From positions 21,270 through 85,269 of IMG/VR virus record IMGVR_UViG_3300025936_000002: a DNA stretch of 64,000 bases; one strand, 5' to 3'. The position numbers were made by a program, and so were the translations under genes. Under the pieces are notes generated by a model. The model was not told where the DNA came from. It ran no database searches and was given only the letters and a program-made list of their open reading frames with translations. This document shows positions 8,016-59,640 of this stretch, piece by piece. Source of the stretch: a virus. Its lineage: Duplodnaviria > Caudoviricetes. Every line of letters starts with the position of its first letter. Within the stretch, counting starts at the first letter, position 1.

Positions 8016-8621
8016 ATGAATATCGCTTTCCTCGATTTCGATGGCGTATTGAACAACATCAAGATGAAACGGCAATCGAGCCGTGGTTGTTCTAGGCGGA
8101 TTCAAGGTAGGCCGCCCAACTACGACGAGATCGAGCCCTGTGGTTGTGAGCAGATCGTTCAGCATTTCGATCGGGCCAATGTCGAACAGCTCAACGAGCT
8201 AGTTGAGAAAACCCAAGCCAAGATCGTGCTCAGCACCAGTTGGCGTAAGATCTACGATGTGCCCTCGCTGGGGCATGTCCTCGAAGAGGTTGGCTTCAAG
8301 GGTGAGGTCGTCGACGAGACCCCCGATCTACCGAACGATGAGCAATGGAAGGATTCGACGCGAGGTCGCTTCTGGATCGACCGCATCCAGCGGGGACACG
8401 AGATCGGCGAATGGCTCCTCCGGCATCCCGAGGTAACCAACTGCGTCATCCTAGATGACGCTATTGACATGTGGCAATTGACGTTTTGCCACGTCCAGAC
8501 CAACGATATGGTCGGCTTGACAGCGGCCGACGTTGGTTGCGCGGTCGACCTCTTAGCTAGCTCAGCGAGGCCGCTAGCGGCCTTCAGAGCGCGTTTTGGG
8601 ATTCACCGGATTCATCGATGA
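8016..8621 (+). CDS. HAD-superfamily phosphatase (Swiss-Army-Knife RNA-repair type)
   Basis: FLDFDGVLN, IVLSTSWR, RGHEIGEWL, VILDD. Confidence 0.85.
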   Translation: MNIAFLDFDGVLNNIKMKRQSSRGCSRRIQGRPPNYDEIEPCGCEQIVQHFDRANVEQLNELVEKTQAKIVLSTSWRKIYDVPSLGHVLEEVGFKGEVVDETPDLPNDEQWKDSTRGRFWIDRIQRGHEIGEWLLRHPEVTNCVILDDAIDMWQLTFCHVQTNDMVGLTAADVGCAVDLLASSARPLAAFRARFGIHRIHR

Positions 8622-54299: not shown

Positions 54300-54776
54300 C
54301 TACAGCGTGCGGCAACCGTCTTTGACACTCTGGTCATTAATACTCTGGTCATCGATTTCTCCGCGTATGACAGATCGTTGATGCATCAATAGGCGCCCCA
54401 GCCAATTTTGGCCTACGCCGTTACAAACACCCCAGAATTGATCACCCCATGTATTGCCCTCAATGAGCCCTATATCCTTTGTGGCAAGTAATTGATTGGC
54501 CAATGGAGTGCCGACGGCGAATTTTTGTCGAATGAGGTCGAACATTACGTCGACTTTGACGGCCTCCCAATCTGCTCGAAGGGGGCATTGTTGCCCTAGA
54601 CGTCTAGCAGCACTCGGTTGACCTATCGTAACCATCCGCTGTCTGTATTCAGGATCTGAACATTTTGCCGCCTGGTAGGCGTGTTCAACGGTAGGGTACG
54701 TCATACCATCTAGTATCACCAGACTTGGATGGTAATTAGACAGCCAACGATATTTGCCACGGAAATCGTTGATCAT
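54300..54776 (-). CDS. NADAR (YbiA-like) protein
   Basis: FRGKYRWLSNY, YPTVEHAYQAAK, IEGNTWGDQFWG, GQNWLGRLLM. Confidence 0.92.
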   Translation of the reverse strand: MINDFRGKYRWLSNYHPSLVILDGMTYPTVEHAYQAAKCSDPEYRQRMVTIGQPSAARRLGQQCPLRADWEAVKVDVMFDLIRQKFAVGTPLANQLLATKDIGLIEGNTWGDQFWGVCNGVGQNWLGRLLMHQRSVIRGEIDDQSINDQSVKDGCRTL

Positions 54777-55576: not shown

Positions 55577-57169
55577 TCAGTGGGCTGTCAGGTCGCCCCC
55601 GCCGACTACTTCGAGGCTCGGATCGGAGCGGCGCCAGATGCGGAACGCCATGTGGCCGCCTAGGGTATGCCGCTCGATGCGAAAGGCTGCGTCGATGTGA
55701 GCCGTCCTGAGCTTGATCCCGAGCGTCCGTGGTGTCTCTTTCCAAGGTCGACCGCCGACCTCGGCTAGATGCTCTAGCTCGTTGGTAAGGTCGAAGACGC
55801 TGATCAACCGTCCTCGGTTCGATTGGACCTTGACTCGGCTGTTGTAGACGACCTTCAGCCACTCGCTCAACAGGTCGATCAACGGCTCGTCTTCGGTCAG
55901 GAACGCCACGCGGGCGGCTTGAAGGGCGGCCATGAGTGCTTCGACATCTTGATCGGTCCACCCCAGCACCCGTCCAACCACACGCCCGAACGACACAAAC
56001 GCGGCCATCCGGTAGGCGTGAGTCGTTAGGTCTAGATCGTCTTTTCGCAGCTCTTCGACGATACGTTCGACGTACCAAAGGTATTCGCCCAGTAGTTTGG
56101 ACCGCAGAGCCAAAATTTCAGCCTTGAGGACCGCCTCATCCTTGAAGGTCTTCCTTCGGTCGAAGCGTAGGATGATGGAGCGATCGATCACGTCATCACG
56201 GCGAAAGCTCGCCGGGTTGCGTGTGGTGAATGAGATGAACGATCGCGGTTTGGTGATGACGTTCTCATCATCGCTGTAGAGCTTTCGCTTCTCCCACTGC
56301 GCTCCGGTGGCGTAGGCGCAGAGCGCATCGGGCAACCACTCCACGTAACTATCTTGGTTGTCGAACAAGGCGATCGGATTACGTAGGAGGATCACACCGA
56401 AGTCGTCCTCCTTGTTCTTTCGCAGGCTGATCGGCTTGTCGCATCCGAATAAAATCAAGTGCAGCAAGACGATGACCGAAGTCTTGCCTGATCCAGCTTC
56501 GCCTTCGAGGAGGAGCATCGGCTTGGCCGGCAAGAGATCTGGGAACGCCACGGCGAACATCCAGATCGTCAAGGCCATCTGCTGTTGGGCGGGGGTGATA
56601 GTAGTCTTGTCGCCCTCGACGAAGCTGGGATTGGTCAAGATCGGCAAGAGCAGCCCATGGGGGCCGATCTCGGGTTCAATCGGGATGCCGCCGTCATCGT
56701 CGGCAAAGAACAGATCATCCGTGCCTTGAGGCTCACGCGTGATCTGCGCCTTCGATTCGATCTTGAAGATGAATCCGTCGTAGGCACTCAGGTAGGCCGT
56801 CTTGGTGGCTTGGTTGTAGGCCGCGAAGCGTCGTAGCTCGACCTGCTCGCCGCGGCTGAAAGCGTAGGCCCTGAGTGCATCGTAGATGAACCCGGACGCC
56901 TTTTCCCGCTCGCCCAAGCCGTAGGTGGTGTGGAAGTAGGAATGCCAGCGGTCCCCGCCGCGTCTAGGCAACTGGACGATCTGATGCGTGTCACCCAAGA
57001 CGGCGTAGAGCTGGTTATCCGGGATCGACCGTAGGAACAGCGTTCCGAGCTCCAGCTCGTTGGCCAAGATGTAGTTCCACAGCGCGATCCACCGATCGCG
57101 TTCTTTCATCTTGGTGTTGCGGATGATGCGCGCGGCGCATGCACGGCGTAAGGCAGCACTTGCGCTCAT
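55577..57169 (-). CDS. primase-associated SF3-like helicase/ATPase (no primase domain seen)
   Basis: LLLEGEAGSGKT, IALFDN, RKLYSD, FTTRN. Confidence 0.8.
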   Translation of the reverse strand: MSASAALRRACAARIIRNTKMKERDRWIALWNYILANELELGTLFLRSIPDNQLYAVLGDTHQIVQLPRRGGDRWHSYFHTTYGLGEREKASGFIYDALRAYAFSRGEQVELRRFAAYNQATKTAYLSAYDGFIFKIESKAQITREPQGTDDLFFADDDGGIPIEPEIGPHGLLLPILTNPSFVEGDKTTITPAQQQMALTIWMFAVAFPDLLPAKPMLLLEGEAGSGKTSVIVLLHLILFGCDKPISLRKNKEDDFGVILLRNPIALFDNQDSYVEWLPDALCAYATGAQWEKRKLYSDDENVITKPRSFISFTTRNPASFRRDDVIDRSIILRFDRRKTFKDEAVLKAEILALRSKLLGEYLWYVERIVEELRKDDLDLTTHAYRMAAFVSFGRVVGRVLGWTDQDVEALMAALQAARVAFLTEDEPLIDLLSEWLKVVYNSRVKVQSNRGRLISVFDLTNELEHLAEVGGRPWKETPRTLGIKLRTAHIDAAFRIERHTLGGHMAFRIWRRSDPSLEVVGGGDLTAH

Positions 57170-57220
57170 TTGCGGATGGAGGAGCGTATCCCGCTGCGGT
57201 GACAGCCCGCACCTTTATGG

Positions 57221-57451
57221 TTGGCGTCGATGTCCATCAACGTAGAGAAGTTGCGCGCGACGTTCGAAATGTACAAAGGCGATGTAGTCAGGGGCGGAGA
57301 TATAGGCGACATGATCCTTGTCCTCGGACAGCTCCTCGACGTGTACGAGGCTGCATGCGCCTGGCGCGACGCCGACGTACATCGAACGTACGAGCAGACG
57401 AATAACGAATTGGTTGCTGCCGTCGACGCCGCCCGCAAGGAGTCCCCATGA
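57221..57451 (+). CDS. hypothetical protein
   Basis: 76 aa; first gene of a plus-strand run. Confidence 0.55.
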   Translation: MASMSINVEKLRATFEMYKGDVVRGGDIGDMILVLGQLLDVYEAACAWRDADVHRTYEQTNNELVAAVDAARKESP

Positions 57452-57792
57452 CCGACGACGAGTTCGAGTTCCACGCCTGGCCACCGCGCCGTGTCGGCGG
57501 TCAGCACGCGGGACTGGTCGGCTACGGCGTGCTCGCGATCCACGTACGTACTGGATTGGCCGCGGTTGCCACCGATGGGCCAAGTCAGATGGTCAACCAA
57601 TCGATCGCCGTCGCGCGGCTGCAGGCGACGTTGGAGGTGCTACGAACTACTGGTCATTTTGCAGACGAGCACCGCAACCCAGATCACCGGCGCGAGATGT
57701 TGGAGATCGATGCACGCTCTCGGATGCTTGACGCCATCGATGAGGCGCGCTGCCAAGGGTTGGCGGGCGCGGGAAGCAAGGCGACGCCATGA
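57448..57792 (+). CDS. stand-alone class I release-factor GGQ (peptidyl-tRNA hydrolase) domain protein
   Basis: GGQH-x11-HxxTG-x6-DxxSQxxN in ungapped register with RF1 domain 3. Confidence 0.75.
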   Translation: MTDDEFEFHAWPPRRVGGQHAGLVGYGVLAIHVRTGLAAVATDGPSQMVNQSIAVARLQATLEVLRTTGHFADEHRNPDHRREMLEIDARSRMLDAIDEARCQGLAGAGSKATP

Positions 57793-58010
57793 ACGACGAG
57801 TTCCGCGCCGCCGCCTTCCACCTCACTCGTGCTGCCCATCACGACCAAGCTGACAGCAACCGTCGACAGGCCTACGTACTCGAGCAAGAGGCCATTACGG
57901 GTCGGCGATGGTGTACACGTTGCTTGAGGCTAGGGCATACGCGACTCGGGGAACGCGAGTGCGCGGAGCCGTGGGCGGCGGTGCCGATTGGCGCCGGAAA
58001 CAAGGAGTGA
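57789..58010 (+). CDS. small Zn-knuckle-like protein
   Basis: CTRCLRLGH..C. Confidence 0.5.
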   Translation: MNDEFRAAAFHLTRAAHHDQADSNRRQAYVLEQEAITGRRWCTRCLRLGHTRLGERECAEPWAAVPIGAGNKE

Positions 58011-58020
58011 TGAGCCTCAG

Positions 58021-59640
58021 ATGCAGATCGTTCTCCATCGCAAACGGCCCGGTTGGTTCAAGGTCCCCTTCGACGTGAGCCAACCGCTATGGGGCGTACC
58101 TGGATCCTACTTCGAGGATGGACTCATCATCGCCCACGGCTCTCATCTACCACTCCTTGATGTTGGGATAGCTACCAAGCATCTACCTCCGACTGGGGGT
58201 CTATCGACGGAATGGGCCAAGCGCGATGCGTCGTGTGAGGCTCAAGGCTTCAAGCTGCGTACGACTCAGCAGCAAGCTATTGACTTCGCGCTGCCCCGTC
58301 GAGGAATTCTGCTTTGTGACGAGCAACGGCTTGGCAAGACTGCTAGTGCGGTGATGATGGATCATGAGTGGCGGCTGCGTTGGACCGTTGCACAACAGGT
58401 ATTCTTGGGTGCCTGGCAGAGGCCTCAATTGCCTTACGGGCCTCTTGTCATCGTGGCGCCACTTTCAACTCGTGCTGTATGGCTAAGTTGGATTAAGCGT
58501 ATCTATCAAAATATAGAGATCGGCATCATCCAAGGCAAGACGTTTGACAAGACGATCTTGCAGCAACCGATCGTGTTTGGGCATTACGACATCATCCACA
58601 AGTGGATGTCATTGTTCGAGATCGGGACGTTGATCCTCGACGAGGTGCAGTTTCTCACCAACCCCGATTCGCGGCGAACCAAGGCGGCGAGGCTCCTCGC
58701 TGGGCGCGCCAAACACGTCGTTGCCTGCACTGGTACGCCGATCAACAAATTCCCGCCGGACATGTATGCTGTGTTGGATATGGTTGCCCCGGGCGCTTGG
58801 GGCTCCTACTACGAGTTTGCGCAACGCTACGGCAACCCTACACCCACGGCTCACGGTACCAGGTACGAAGGTATCTCCAACGAGACGGAACTGCGGGATA
58901 GGTTGAGCGAGGTAATGATCCGCCGCCTCTGGCGCGACGTGCACAAGGATCTGCCGCCCATCACTCGCTCGATCGTCGTTGCTGATTTGACTAAGGTTGA
59001 GCGCAACAAGCTCGACATTTTGGCTGGCAAGATCAAGGCTGAGCGCTCGAACGTCGCAGCAAACCTCGCTAGCTACCGACGGACGGTCTCGAGTATCAAG
59101 CTGTCGACGGTCTTGGCTGAGGTTGAAAAAGTTGTAGAACGCGGTGAGCCGGTCGTGGTTTGGACCTGGCACAAAGACTTCGCCGAAAAGATCCTGAAGA
59201 AGCTAAGCGATAAAGGGATCGTCGGCTGTTTGATCAATGGCGACATCGCGATCCTCGAGCGCGAGAAACGCATGGCTGAATGGCGTGCGAGGTCGAACGC
59301 AGTTCTGATCGCGACGATGGCCGTTGCAGGGGCCGGCATCGATCTCTCTCATGCTCGGATCGCCGTGTTTGCCGAGATCGACTACACGCCCGCTATCCTC
59401 GGCCAAGCCGAGATGCGTACGTTCAGCCCGTTACGGGCGATGGACGTCTTGTTCGTGGTCGCCAACCACTTGGTTGACCAACGTATCGTCCGCTCGTTGG
59501 TCGGCAAGCTCTCAGCCTCCGATCCGTTGGGTGTCGCTGCTGCCATCGACGCCATCGATGCTCTGCGTGACGCCGTCTTGGGCCCCGATGAAGAGGGCGA
59601 TCTCGATCGCTTGCTCGAGGATCTGCTGGCTTCTTGTTAG
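58021..59640 (+). CDS. SNF2-family helicase
   Basis: LLCDEQRLGKT, VIVAP, ILDEVQ, CTGTP, GAGIDLS, QAEMRT. Confidence 0.92.
   Translation: MQIVLHRKRPGWFKVPFDVSQPLWGVPGSYFEDGLIIAHGSHLPLLDVGIATKHLPPTGGLSTEWAKRDASCEAQGFKLRTTQQQAIDFALPRRGILLCDEQRLGKTASAVMMDHEWRLRWTVAQQVFLGAWQRPQLPYGPLVIVAPLSTRAVWLSWIKRIYQNIEIGIIQGKTFDKTILQQPIVFGHYDIIHKWMSLFEIGTLILDEVQFLTNPDSRRTKAARLLAGRAKHVVACTGTPINKFPPDMYAVLDMVAPGAWGSYYEFAQRYGNPTPTAHGTRYEGISNETELRDRLSEVMIRRLWRDVHKDLPPITRSIVVADLTKVERNKLDILAGKIKAERSNVAANLASYRRTVSSIKLSTVLAEVEKVVERGEPVVVWTWHKDFAEKILKKLSDKGIVGCLINGDIAILEREKRMAEWRARSNAVLIATMAVAGAGIDLSHARIAVFAEIDYTPAILGQAEMRTFSPLRAMDVLFVVANHLVDQRIVRSLVGKLSASDPLGVAAAIDAIDALRDAVLGPDEEGDLDRLLEDLLASC

What the first reader, a model, noticed from the sequence alone, without database searches (positions are those of the whole stretch)
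57448..57792. Minimal viral release-factor (GGQ) domain
GGQHAGLVGYGVLAIHVRTGLAAVATDGPSQMVNQSIA aligns without gaps to RF1 domain 3 (GGQH...H..TG......D..SQ..N...A). It lacks the codon-reading domains and the basic tail of ArfB. Inference: a codon-independent peptidyl-tRNA hydrolase that rescues or hijacks ribosomes. This is of interest in a genome that appears to rely on leaderless mRNAs.
Basis: partly seen in the sequence, partly recalled or inferred. Interest (0 to 1): 0.7.

Follow-up and report, generated by a model that had tools for sequence, protein, structure and literature searches.

The report
Viral bare release-factor GGQ domain
An uncultured 85-kb bacterial virus encodes a 114-residue protein that is only the peptide-releasing (Gly-Gly-Gln) domain of a bacterial release factor; it belongs to a large phage family that databases list but nobody seems to have studied, and how such a bare domain reaches the ribosome is unknown.

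Summary
The ORF at 57448-57792 (+) is a real gene. It has the genome's normal coding pattern and a strong Shine-Dalgarno, and 94 cluster representatives match it.

Residues 5-68 are a gap-free homolog of domain 3 of bacterial class-I release factors:
- Pfam RF-1 scores only 20 bits for this protein, but close relatives pass the cut-off.
- The family profile hits RF1 in the PDB at E=2e-20.
- The AlphaFold model (pLDDT 87) superposes on RF2 at Z 8.5.
- GGQ is kept in 95 of 96 sequences examined.

The protein has no codon-reading domains, no ArfB insertion and no basic tail (net charge -2). It fails the curated prfA, prfB, prfH and arfB models.

The kind is already catalogued (PHROG "RF-1 domain" families, UniProt phage entries). 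This scan has noted it in at least 21 other genomes. I found no experimental study.

YaeJ's GGQ domain alone neither binds ribosomes nor hydrolyses (PMC3950681). A partner-dependent or 50S-directed peptidyl-tRNA hydrolase is my best guess, at about 50%.

New here:
- A sub-branch link to an upstream 73-aa helical protein (adjacent in 3 loci, fused in 1-2 representatives), but the link is not obligate.
- The cassette is accessory in this virus lineage.
- The near-invariant Arg of the RSQ motif is Pro in this protein.

The parts
57448..57792 (+). Gene for the 114-aa bare GGQ-domain protein (stop codon included)
   Evidence: ORF list and sequence. Normal coding GC pattern. 94 homologous representatives. 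AlphaFold2 pLDDT 86.7.
57460..57651 (+). GGQ-domain core, residues 5-68: strand 6-11, GGQ loop 12-26, strands 27-32 and 38-41, helix 47-68
   Evidence: Pfam RF-1 positions 11-83. Family profile against RF1, E=2e-20. VIA Z 8.5 to RF2 residues 217-289, PrfH 7.8, mtRF-R 7.5, YaeJ 6.4.
57496..57504 (+). Gly17-Gly18-Gln19 codons (ggc ggt cag), the catalytic motif
   Evidence: Read from the sequence. G17 and Q19 are invariant and G18 is at least 90% conserved in a 93-sequence alignment.
57652..57789 (+). Non-basic C-terminal tail, residues 69-114, with predicted helix 78-102 and the motif EARCQGL shared with the closest relatives
   Evidence: Helix in the model. The tail motif matches P0004, P0005 and P0006. 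Net charge -2.
57437..57442 (+). Shine-Dalgarno AAGGAG, 5 nt upstream of the ATG
   Evidence: Upstream sequence printed.
57230..57451 (+). Upstream 73-aa helical protein ('up76'). Its stop overlaps the GGQ start (ATGA). Candidate, non-obligate partner.
   Evidence: Homologs sit directly upstream of the GGQ gene in L008 and L009. Leave-one-out HMM gives 37.4 bits against a best of 7.5 in 500 shuffles. The motif is fused after the GGQ domain in P0076 (16.7 bits, 0 of 500 shuffles). However, 3 of 3 other contexts with DNA have no GGQ gene.
57789..58010 (+). Downstream 73-aa ORF whose start overlaps the GGQ stop (ATGA). Not conserved beside GGQ genes elsewhere.
   Evidence: ORF list. No cross-locus match.
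57988..59640 (+). SNF2-family helicase, the next gene in the same rightward operon (context)
   Evidence: Pfam SNF2-rel_dom E=1e-23 and Helicase_C. phrog_62 E=2e-58.
55577..57169 (-). Divergently transcribed primase/P-loop-like 530-aa gene (context)
   Evidence: phrog_47 DNA primase E=3e-6. A homolog is present in the related virus L017.

Best explanation
The gene encodes a stand-alone, stripped-down copy of the GGQ (peptidyl-hydrolase) domain of bacterial class-I release factors. It is carried as an accessory early gene at the head of the virus's replication operon. That identity is shown, with a confidence of about 0.97.

The mechanism below is inferred, at about 0.5. The domain docks in the A-site side of the peptidyl-transferase centre and uses its invariant GGQ loop to hydrolyse peptidyl-tRNA without reading a codon. 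This frees ribosomes, or split 50S subunits, that become jammed during infection, for example on truncated mRNAs or after host RNase-type defences.

It has no decoding domains and no ArfB-type basic tail, so it probably cannot bind the ribosome alone. It would need a delivery partner or its own helical tail. Across the family the ~65-residue core carries interchangeable add-ons: helical tails, Cys-rich modules and a ~100-aa N-terminal domain. This fits the picture of a catalytic warhead with variable adaptors. In this sub-branch the translationally coupled upstream 73-aa helical protein is a candidate adaptor, but not an obligate one.
For: Homology and fold.

Selection on the catalytic loop:
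- GGQ is present in 95 of 96 sequences examined.
- G17 and Q19 are invariant in a 93-sequence alignment.
- H32, G36, S46, Q47, N50 and A54 are at least 90% conserved, and these are the same columns that are conserved in RF-1.

The gene is real and expressed-looking: normal coding bias, a strong Shine-Dalgarno, and ATGA coupling on both sides.

Need for a partner: YaeJ deletion 101-140 is inactive and does not bind ribosomes (PMC3950681). Tails in the family are not basic (median net charge 0), and 46 of 96 members have fewer than 15 residues after the helix.

Modularity: 34 of 96 are the bare core, 12 share an N-terminal domain, at least 14 have Cys-rich extensions, and 1-2 have the up76 module fused.

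up76 link: adjacent in the window, L008 and L009, and fused in P0076.

Conceptual precedents: ArfA-RF2, PrfH-RtcB2, and mtRF-R-MTRES1 on split large subunits (structures listed). The counter-defence rationale for phage peptidyl-tRNA hydrolases is set out in PMC7824862.
Against: No biochemical data exist for any member that I could find.

This protein replaces the family's near-invariant Arg of the E-R-S-Q motif with Pro (GPSQ). Its own Pfam score is sub-threshold, so it may be a weakened member.

The up76 partner idea is weak. The up76 family has 45 homologs. In 3 of 3 other contexts with DNA no GGQ gene lies within 3 kb, and 2 further contexts without DNA show no annotated one. L019, L010 and L014 lack up76 beside their GGQ genes.

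The virus has no RtcB, no Pth and no tRNA genes. Its HAD_SAK_2 RNA-repair-type gene is 49 kb away. So there is no local rescue or repair module.

A related virus lacks the cassette, so it is dispensable for the lineage.
Confidence: 0.5

Rival explanations
1. Translation take-over or shut-off factor. The bare domain enters A sites, or the peptidyl-transferase centre, of elongating host ribosomes and causes premature, codon-independent peptide release. Alternatively it simply blocks the site, damping host protein synthesis early in infection.
For: Same structural evidence as the main reading. The gene sits at the head of an early operon. Earlier scan notes describe sister phage families in which the catalytic Gln is replaced (not tested by me). 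That would suggest docking matters more than hydrolysis in some branches.
Against: A bare domain cannot tell host messages from viral ones, so it would harm viral translation too. The isolated YaeJ GGQ domain does not bind ribosomes. The strict GGQ conservation in this branch argues for catalysis and against mere blocking.
Confidence: 0.17
2. Molecular decoy. The domain mimics domain 3 of host RF1/RF2 to soak up a protein that recognises the GGQ loop. Candidates are the PrmC/HemK glutamine methyltransferase, or a host defence or toxin that senses or modifies release factors. The effect would be to retune termination or blunt a defence.
For: The fold match includes RF1 as seen in its complex with PrmC (2b3t, Z 7.3). 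Conservation of the GGQ loop and surrounding columns would also be expected of a mimic. No ribosome-binding appendage is present.
Against: There is no direct evidence and no methyltransferase or related gene nearby. The family-specific His-x-Trp-Pro motif just before GGQ differs from RF1/RF2, which a faithful mimic would not need.
Confidence: 0.13
3. Decaying or functionless passenger. It would be an accessory gene drifting towards loss in this virus, kept only by recent acquisition.
For: The near-invariant Arg45 is Pro, and the closest relative P0005 has also lost Ser-Gln. This protein's own RF-1 score is below Pfam's cut-off. The cassette is absent from the one related virus found.
Against: The frame is intact, with a strong Shine-Dalgarno and translational coupling. 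GGQ and most conserved columns are kept. The model is confident. The C-terminal EARCQGL motif is conserved among relatives that are about 50% identical, which implies purifying selection.
Confidence: 0.1
4. The GGQ frame is not the real gene. The true gene would be the antisense 144-aa ORF at 57166-57600, whose stop overlaps the start of the 530-aa primase-like gene.
For: The antisense ORF is longer, has high GC3 (0.73) and a 4-bp overlap with the next minus-strand gene.
Against: The plus frame has 94 homologous representatives and a release-factor fold. The antisense frame has an atypical GC1/GC2 and no PHROG hit. Its high GC3 is explained by sharing third positions with the true frame.
Confidence: 0.02

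Closest known systems
Domain 3 (GGQ / peptidyl-hydrolase domain, Pfam RF-1 PF00472) of bacterial class-I release factors RF1 and RF2
   Same: Gap-free alignment across strand, GGQ loop, two strands and helix. The family profile hits RF1 at E=2e-20. The model superposes on T. thermophilus RF2 residues 217-289 at Z 8.5, rmsd 3.0 over 71 residues. The same conserved columns are present: GGQH, H..TG, SQ..N...A.
   Different: No domains 1, 2 or 4, so no stop-codon reading, no switch loop and no RF3 contact. It also lacks the last strand of the Pfam model (positions 84-116). It has His-x-Trp-Pro-Pro before GGQ, where RFs have Arg-Ala-Ser-Gly, and GGQHxG where RFs have GGQHVN. Scores of 15-19 bits fall far short of the prfA/prfB cut-offs of 370-423.
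Phage 'RF-1 domain peptide chain release factor' families (phrog_3122, phrog_20323, phrog_35727, phrog_19918), for example Tunturiibacter phage Tunturi_4 gp53, Pseudomonas phage Boevelstad CDS0189 and Mycobacterium phage Phabba RF-1 protein
   Same: Short (64-136 aa) phage proteins made of the GGQ core alone. This protein is 33% identical to Tunturi_4 gp53 (115 aa), which also lies in a replication module. Relatives hit these PHROGs at 1e-8 to 1e-17. The folds match in BFVD.
   Different: This protein itself reaches only E=0.057 on phrog_35727. Its His-Ala-Trp-Pro-Pro sub-branch is almost absent from IMG/VR and from representative bacterial genomes. It carries its own EARCQGL tail.
ArfB / YaeJ (and mitochondrial ICT1): codon-independent rescue factor
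   Same: A GGQ domain without decoding domains. Fold match Z 6.4 to YaeJ 2rtx.
   Different: No inserted helix between strands 2 and 3. No linker, and no basic C-terminal helix with the essential Arg118, Leu119, Lys122, Lys129 and Arg132; the tail's net charge is -2. No NCBIfam ArfB hit.
PrfH (RFH) of the PrfH-RtcB2 rescue-and-repair module
   Same: Best single-sequence PDB hit (9mor_A, E=4e-5) and best curated model (TIGR03072, 27.4 bits). Both are accessory, conflict-associated release-factor paralogs.
   Different: PrfH keeps an N-terminal decoding-like domain of about 100 residues, and it scores above 166 bits on its own model. No RtcB is present anywhere in this virus. Close relatives score equally on RF1, RF2 and PrfH, so the PrfH affinity is slight.
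mtRF-R (C12orf65) with MTRES1 on split mitoribosomal large subunits
   Same: A GGQ domain followed by a helical extension that works only with a small partner protein and acts on large-subunit-bound peptidyl-tRNA. Fold match Z 7.5 (2rsm) and Z 6.6 over 104 residues (7a5h).
   Different: No sequence relation in the tail. The partner here is hypothetical. This is an analogy, not membership.

Membership tests
RF-1 / GGQ-domain superfamily (Pfam PF00472) | Significant match to the RF-1 profile | tested here: met
   This protein's own score is 20.2 bits, under the cut-off of 35. But relatives at E=1e-18 to 1e-11 pass it: P0004 38.0, P0009 44.1, P0003 55.5 bits. The family profile hits RF1 at E=2e-20.
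RF-1 / GGQ-domain superfamily (Pfam PF00472) | Gly-Gly-Gln in the loop between the first two strands | tested here: met
   Residues 17-19 are GGQ. They lie in loop 12-26 of the model and are conserved in 95 of 96 sequences.
RF-1 / GGQ-domain superfamily (Pfam PF00472) | Three-stranded sheet plus long helix fold | tested here: met
   AlphaFold2 pLDDT 86.7. All top Foldseek and VIA matches are GGQ domains, with Z up to 8.5.
RF1 / RF2 (prfA, prfB) | Codon-recognition domains 2 and 4, the N-terminal domain 1, and equivalog score | tested here: not met
   The protein is only 114 aa and the GGQ domain begins at residue 5. It scores 18.7 and 15.4 bits against cut-offs of 400 and 370.
ArfB / YaeJ / ICT1 | Basic C-terminal tail that binds the empty mRNA channel | tested here: not met
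   Net charge of the tail is -2 and there is no Arg/Lys-rich helix. The tail residues required in YaeJ are listed.
ArfB / YaeJ / ICT1 | Inserted helix between strands 2 and 3, and a match to the ArfB model | tested here: not met
   There are only 5 residues between strands 2 and 3. The alignment to RF and PrfH is gap-free. There is no NF006718 hit.
PrfH (RFH) | N-terminal decoding-like domain and a TIGR03072 score over 166.65 | tested here: not met
   27.4 bits, matching only model positions 104-175.
PrfH (RFH) | Operon with an RtcB2 RNA ligase | tested here: not met
   No RtcB match in the complete 85-kb genome.
Phage bare-GGQ families (phrog_35727, 19918, 20323, 3122) | Profile match to one of these PHROGs | tested here: inconclusive
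   This protein scores E=0.057 on phrog_35727. Its relatives P0004, P0007, P0009 and P0015 hit all four at 1e-4 to 1e-9.
Phage bare-GGQ families (phrog_35727, 19918, 20323, 3122) | Short protein made of the GGQ core only, encoded in a phage | tested here: met
   114 aa, encoded in a complete virus record with direct terminal repeats. The contexts of relatives are phage early-gene arrays.
Ribosome-dependent peptidyl-tRNA hydrolase (functional class) | GGQ-dependent hydrolysis on ribosomes | not testable with these tools
   This needs biochemistry. I found no published assay of any bare phage GGQ protein.

The most novel reading that the evidence does not exclude
Bare GGQ domains of phages are a distinct class of trans-acting peptidyl-tRNA hydrolase 'warheads'. 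Interchangeable small adaptors deliver them to stalled ribosomes or split 50S subunits. The adaptors may be fused or separately encoded: helical up76-like proteins, Cys-rich modules, or a ~100-aa N-terminal domain. This would be a viral ribosome-rescue or hijack system with no described counterpart. In this virus the pair is the translationally coupled 73-aa and 114-aa proteins.
Probability: 0.25. Interest if true: 0.75.

Novelty: new member of a known kind. Interest (0 to 1): 0.45.

Why it matters
Every known GGQ-domain factor reaches the ribosome through something extra: decoding domains (RF1, RF2, PrfH), a basic tail (ArfB, ICT1) or a partner (ArfA or BrfA with RF2, MTRES1 with mtRF-R).

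Phages carry many GGQ domains with none of these. If they are active, they show either the minimal requirement for peptide release at the peptidyl-transferase centre or a new way of delivering the domain. They would also point to ribosome jamming as a routine problem, or a weapon, in infection.

This particular gene is one more member and not the first. Its value is as a tractable example with a candidate partner right next to it.

Tried and rejected
- The word-index homolog search found only the protein itself. The exhaustive search was needed.
- The genome-wide RF-1 family scan of the virus's own genome missed the gene, which is a sensitivity limit of that tool.
- Locus scans with broad alignments failed or found nothing: viral contigs and bacterial genomes. 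The metagenome scan gave only two short loci, with no new up76 evidence.
- The up76 partner hypothesis was tested from the other side and weakened.
- up76 has no Pfam, PHROG, PDB or atlas relative.
- The 73-aa downstream ORF is not conserved next to GGQ genes.
- The ~100-aa N-terminal domain shared by 12 relatives has no Pfam match.
- An RNA-repair linkage was rejected for this locus: there is no RtcB, Pth or tRNA gene, and HAD_SAK_2 is distant. There are no Rfam RNAs in the window.
- Host assignment failed. The nearest cultured phages are only 30-45% identical in the helicase and the topoisomerase-like protein, and their hosts are scattered.
- The antisense ORF was rejected.
- The AlphaFold model of the natural fusion P0076 shows a long helix extending from the domain and no docking interface, so it gives no clue to an interaction surface.
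- The literature searches found no study of bare phage GGQ proteins.

Full report
**What is there.** The window is bases 21270-85269 of a complete 85,269-bp uncultured virus record with 127-bp direct terminal repeats. It is the second of three small, translationally coupled ORFs (ATGA overlaps at 57448 and 57789). These open a rightward operon that continues into an SNF2-family helicase and a PD-(D/E)XK-like nuclease. The operon is divergent from a primase-like gene. The gene has AAGGAG 5 nt before its ATG and the genome's usual codon-position GC pattern. A longer antisense ORF (57166-57600) does not have that pattern, and it has no database relatives.

**Is it a release-factor domain?** Yes.
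- On its own the protein scores below Pfam's RF-1 cut-off (20.2 against 35 bits, E=6e-4). Its best PDB sequence hit is PrfH (E=4e-5), aligned without gaps over residues 6-66.
- An exhaustive HMMER search of 1.84 billion representatives gives 94 hits at E<1e-3. Nearly all are 60-220 aa, and all match residues 1-65.
- Several of the closest hits pass the RF-1 cut-off themselves.
- The profile built from them hits RF1, RF2, PrfH, mtRF1, mtRF-R and ArfB in the PDB, with RF1 at E=2e-20.
- The AlphaFold2 model (pLDDT 86.7) has strand 6-11, a long loop carrying GGQ, strands 27-32 and 38-41, and helix 47-68, followed by a second helix 78-102.
- Residues 1-75 superpose on RF2 domain 3 (Z 8.5). RF1, PrfH, mtRF-R and YaeJ lie within about 2 Z units.
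- GGQ occurs in 95 of 96 sequences examined. G17 and Q19 are invariant, and the other conserved columns are those of canonical release factors.

**What it is not.**
- There are no decoding domains.
- There is no ArfB-type inserted helix or basic tail; the tail's net charge is -2.
- No RtcB, Pth or tRNA gene is present anywhere in the virus.
- NCBI's curated models give PrfH 27.4, RF1 18.7 and RF2 15.4 bits and nothing for ArfB. All are far below the cut-offs.
- Five of the 94 hits are bacterial PrfH or fragments of it. The rest are the phage family.

**Is it known?** The kind is catalogued.
- PHROGs has families named 'RF-1 domain peptide chain release factor' (phrog_3122, phrog_20323) and two unnamed ones that the relatives hit.
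- Tunturiibacter phage Tunturi_4 gp53 (115 aa, 33% identical, also in a replication module) carries that name.
- BFVD holds matching models from Pseudomonas, Acinetobacter, Aeromonas, Cellulophaga, Rhodococcus and Mycobacterium phages.
- RF-1 domain genes in mycobacteriophage tRNA arrays were noted in PMC5966550.
- Burroughs and Aravind's survey of release-factor paralogs does not describe a bare phage clade.
- I found no experimental paper.
- Earlier notes of this scan (AI notes, not evidence) report the same bare-GGQ phage family in at least 21 other genomes. My independent results agree with them.

**How might it work?** The only direct experimental guide is YaeJ/ArfB. Its GGQ domain alone (deletion 101-140) has no hydrolase activity and stays in the soluble fraction. 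Binding depends on the basic tail (PMC3950681).

Across the family the ~65-residue core is combined with varied appendages:
- 34 of 96 have none.
- 12 share a ~100-aa N-terminal domain with no Pfam match.
- At least 14 carry Cys-rich extensions.
- 4 share this protein's EARCQGL tail.
- Tails are not basic.

This modularity, together with the strict conservation of the catalytic loop, fits a catalytic module that needs a variable delivery device. The precedents are ArfA or BrfA with RF2, and MTRES1 with mtRF-R on split large subunits. Those are inferences, not findings.

**A candidate partner, tested both ways.**

Evidence for the link:
- The 73-aa ORF just upstream (57230-57451) has homologs directly upstream of the GGQ gene in two metagenomic loci whose GGQ proteins are about 50% identical to this one.
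- Its C-terminal motif (LLxVYEAAxAWRD...AVDAxRK) is fused after the GGQ domain in P0076, and more weakly in P0033.
- In a leave-one-out test, an HMM trained only on the other loci scores the window ORF at 37.4 bits (best of 500 shuffles: 7.5). It scores the P0076 tail at 16.7 bits (0 of 500 shuffles) and P0033 at 5.7 bits (7 of 500).

Evidence against an obligate link:
- The up76 family has 45 homologs.
- In the three other contexts with DNA, no GGQ gene lies within 3 kb. Two further contexts without DNA show no annotated one.
- Three other GGQ loci lack an up76 neighbour.

The link is therefore real in this sub-branch but not obligate. up76 has no known relatives.

**Caveats on this member.**
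- The near-invariant Arg of the E-R-S-Q motif at the start of the helix is Pro here. The closest relative, P0005, has lost Ser-Gln as well.
- The cassette is accessory. In the one related virus found (SNF2 helicase 46% identical), the slot between the primase-like gene and the helicase holds an unrelated 110-aa membrane-protein ORF. That record, about 65% complete, has no family member.
- Genome-wide, only about 29% of longest-ORF starts have a 4-mer Shine-Dalgarno, against 16% at random positions (rough). So the 'leaderless' remark may hold for some genes, but not for this one.

**Verdict.** This is a new member of a catalogued but unstudied phage family. The identity is secure. The function is inferred to be a partner-dependent or 50S-directed peptidyl-tRNA hydrolase (about 0.5). 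The rivals are a translation blocker or shut-off factor, a decoy for GGQ-recognising proteins, and a decaying passenger.

Noticed in passing
window 57230-57451 (+); L008:856-1173; L009:1013-1354 and 1557-1832; L021:3001-3324; L022:3001-3300; L023:3001-3213: A well-conserved family of small phage proteins of unknown function (MTIDxxKLRxLL...AAVNALPxLLAVYEAAxAWRD...AIDAARK). There are 45 homologs, with no Pfam, PHROG or PDB relative. They sit in early-gene arrays, sometimes beside or fused to bare GGQ domains.
   Followed up: yes
window 8016-8621 (+): A 201-aa protein with a strong match to HAD_SAK_2, the HAD phosphatase domain of 'Swiss Army Knife' RNA-repair proteins (99 bits). It is 49 kb from the GGQ gene and there is no RNA ligase in the genome.
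   Followed up: partly
window 54300-54776 (-); also L023:4641-5129: A NADAR domain protein (77 bits) lies 2.5 kb from the up76/GGQ cassette. An unrelated contig with an up76 homolog also has a NADAR gene 1.4 kb away. This is possibly a coincidence of early accessory regions.
   Followed up: no
L017:3651-3983 (related virus IMGVR_UViG_3300002461_000841): In the related virus, the slot between the primase-like gene and the SNF2 helicase holds a 110-aa ORF with a hydrophobic N-terminal segment in place of the three small ORFs. So this position looks like a swap site for accessory genes.
   Followed up: partly
proteins P0011, P0031, P0037, P0067 (N-terminal); P0021, P0029, P0063, P0080, P0081 (C-terminal): Recurrent Cys-rich modules are fused to bare GGQ domains, including a repeated CxCGADGxGPC motif. 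They may be metal-binding anchors.
   Followed up: partly
proteins P0028, P0038, P0040, P0049, P0052, P0059, P0066, P0069, P0077, P0078, P0082, P0086: Twelve GGQ-family representatives share a homologous ~90-105-aa N-terminal domain that has no Pfam match. Several contain the motif ERNER..AAAEVERLKP.
   Followed up: partly
window 57166-57600 (-): A 144-aa antisense ORF overlaps the up76 and GGQ genes and has a 4-bp overlap with the primase-like gene. A naive longest-ORF gene caller picks it over the true genes.
   Followed up: yes
whole window and genome G000: Most large ORFs have no PHROG hit, and no terminase, portal or tail family appeared in the Pfam inventory of 74 window ORFs. Earlier scan notes call this a tailless jelly-roll-capsid virus. 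I did not test that.
   Followed up: no
whole genome G000: Shine-Dalgarno motifs precede only about 29% of longest-ORF starts, against 16% at random positions. The divergent primase-like and up76 genes are only about 60 bp apart, which leaves little room for leaders.
   Followed up: partly
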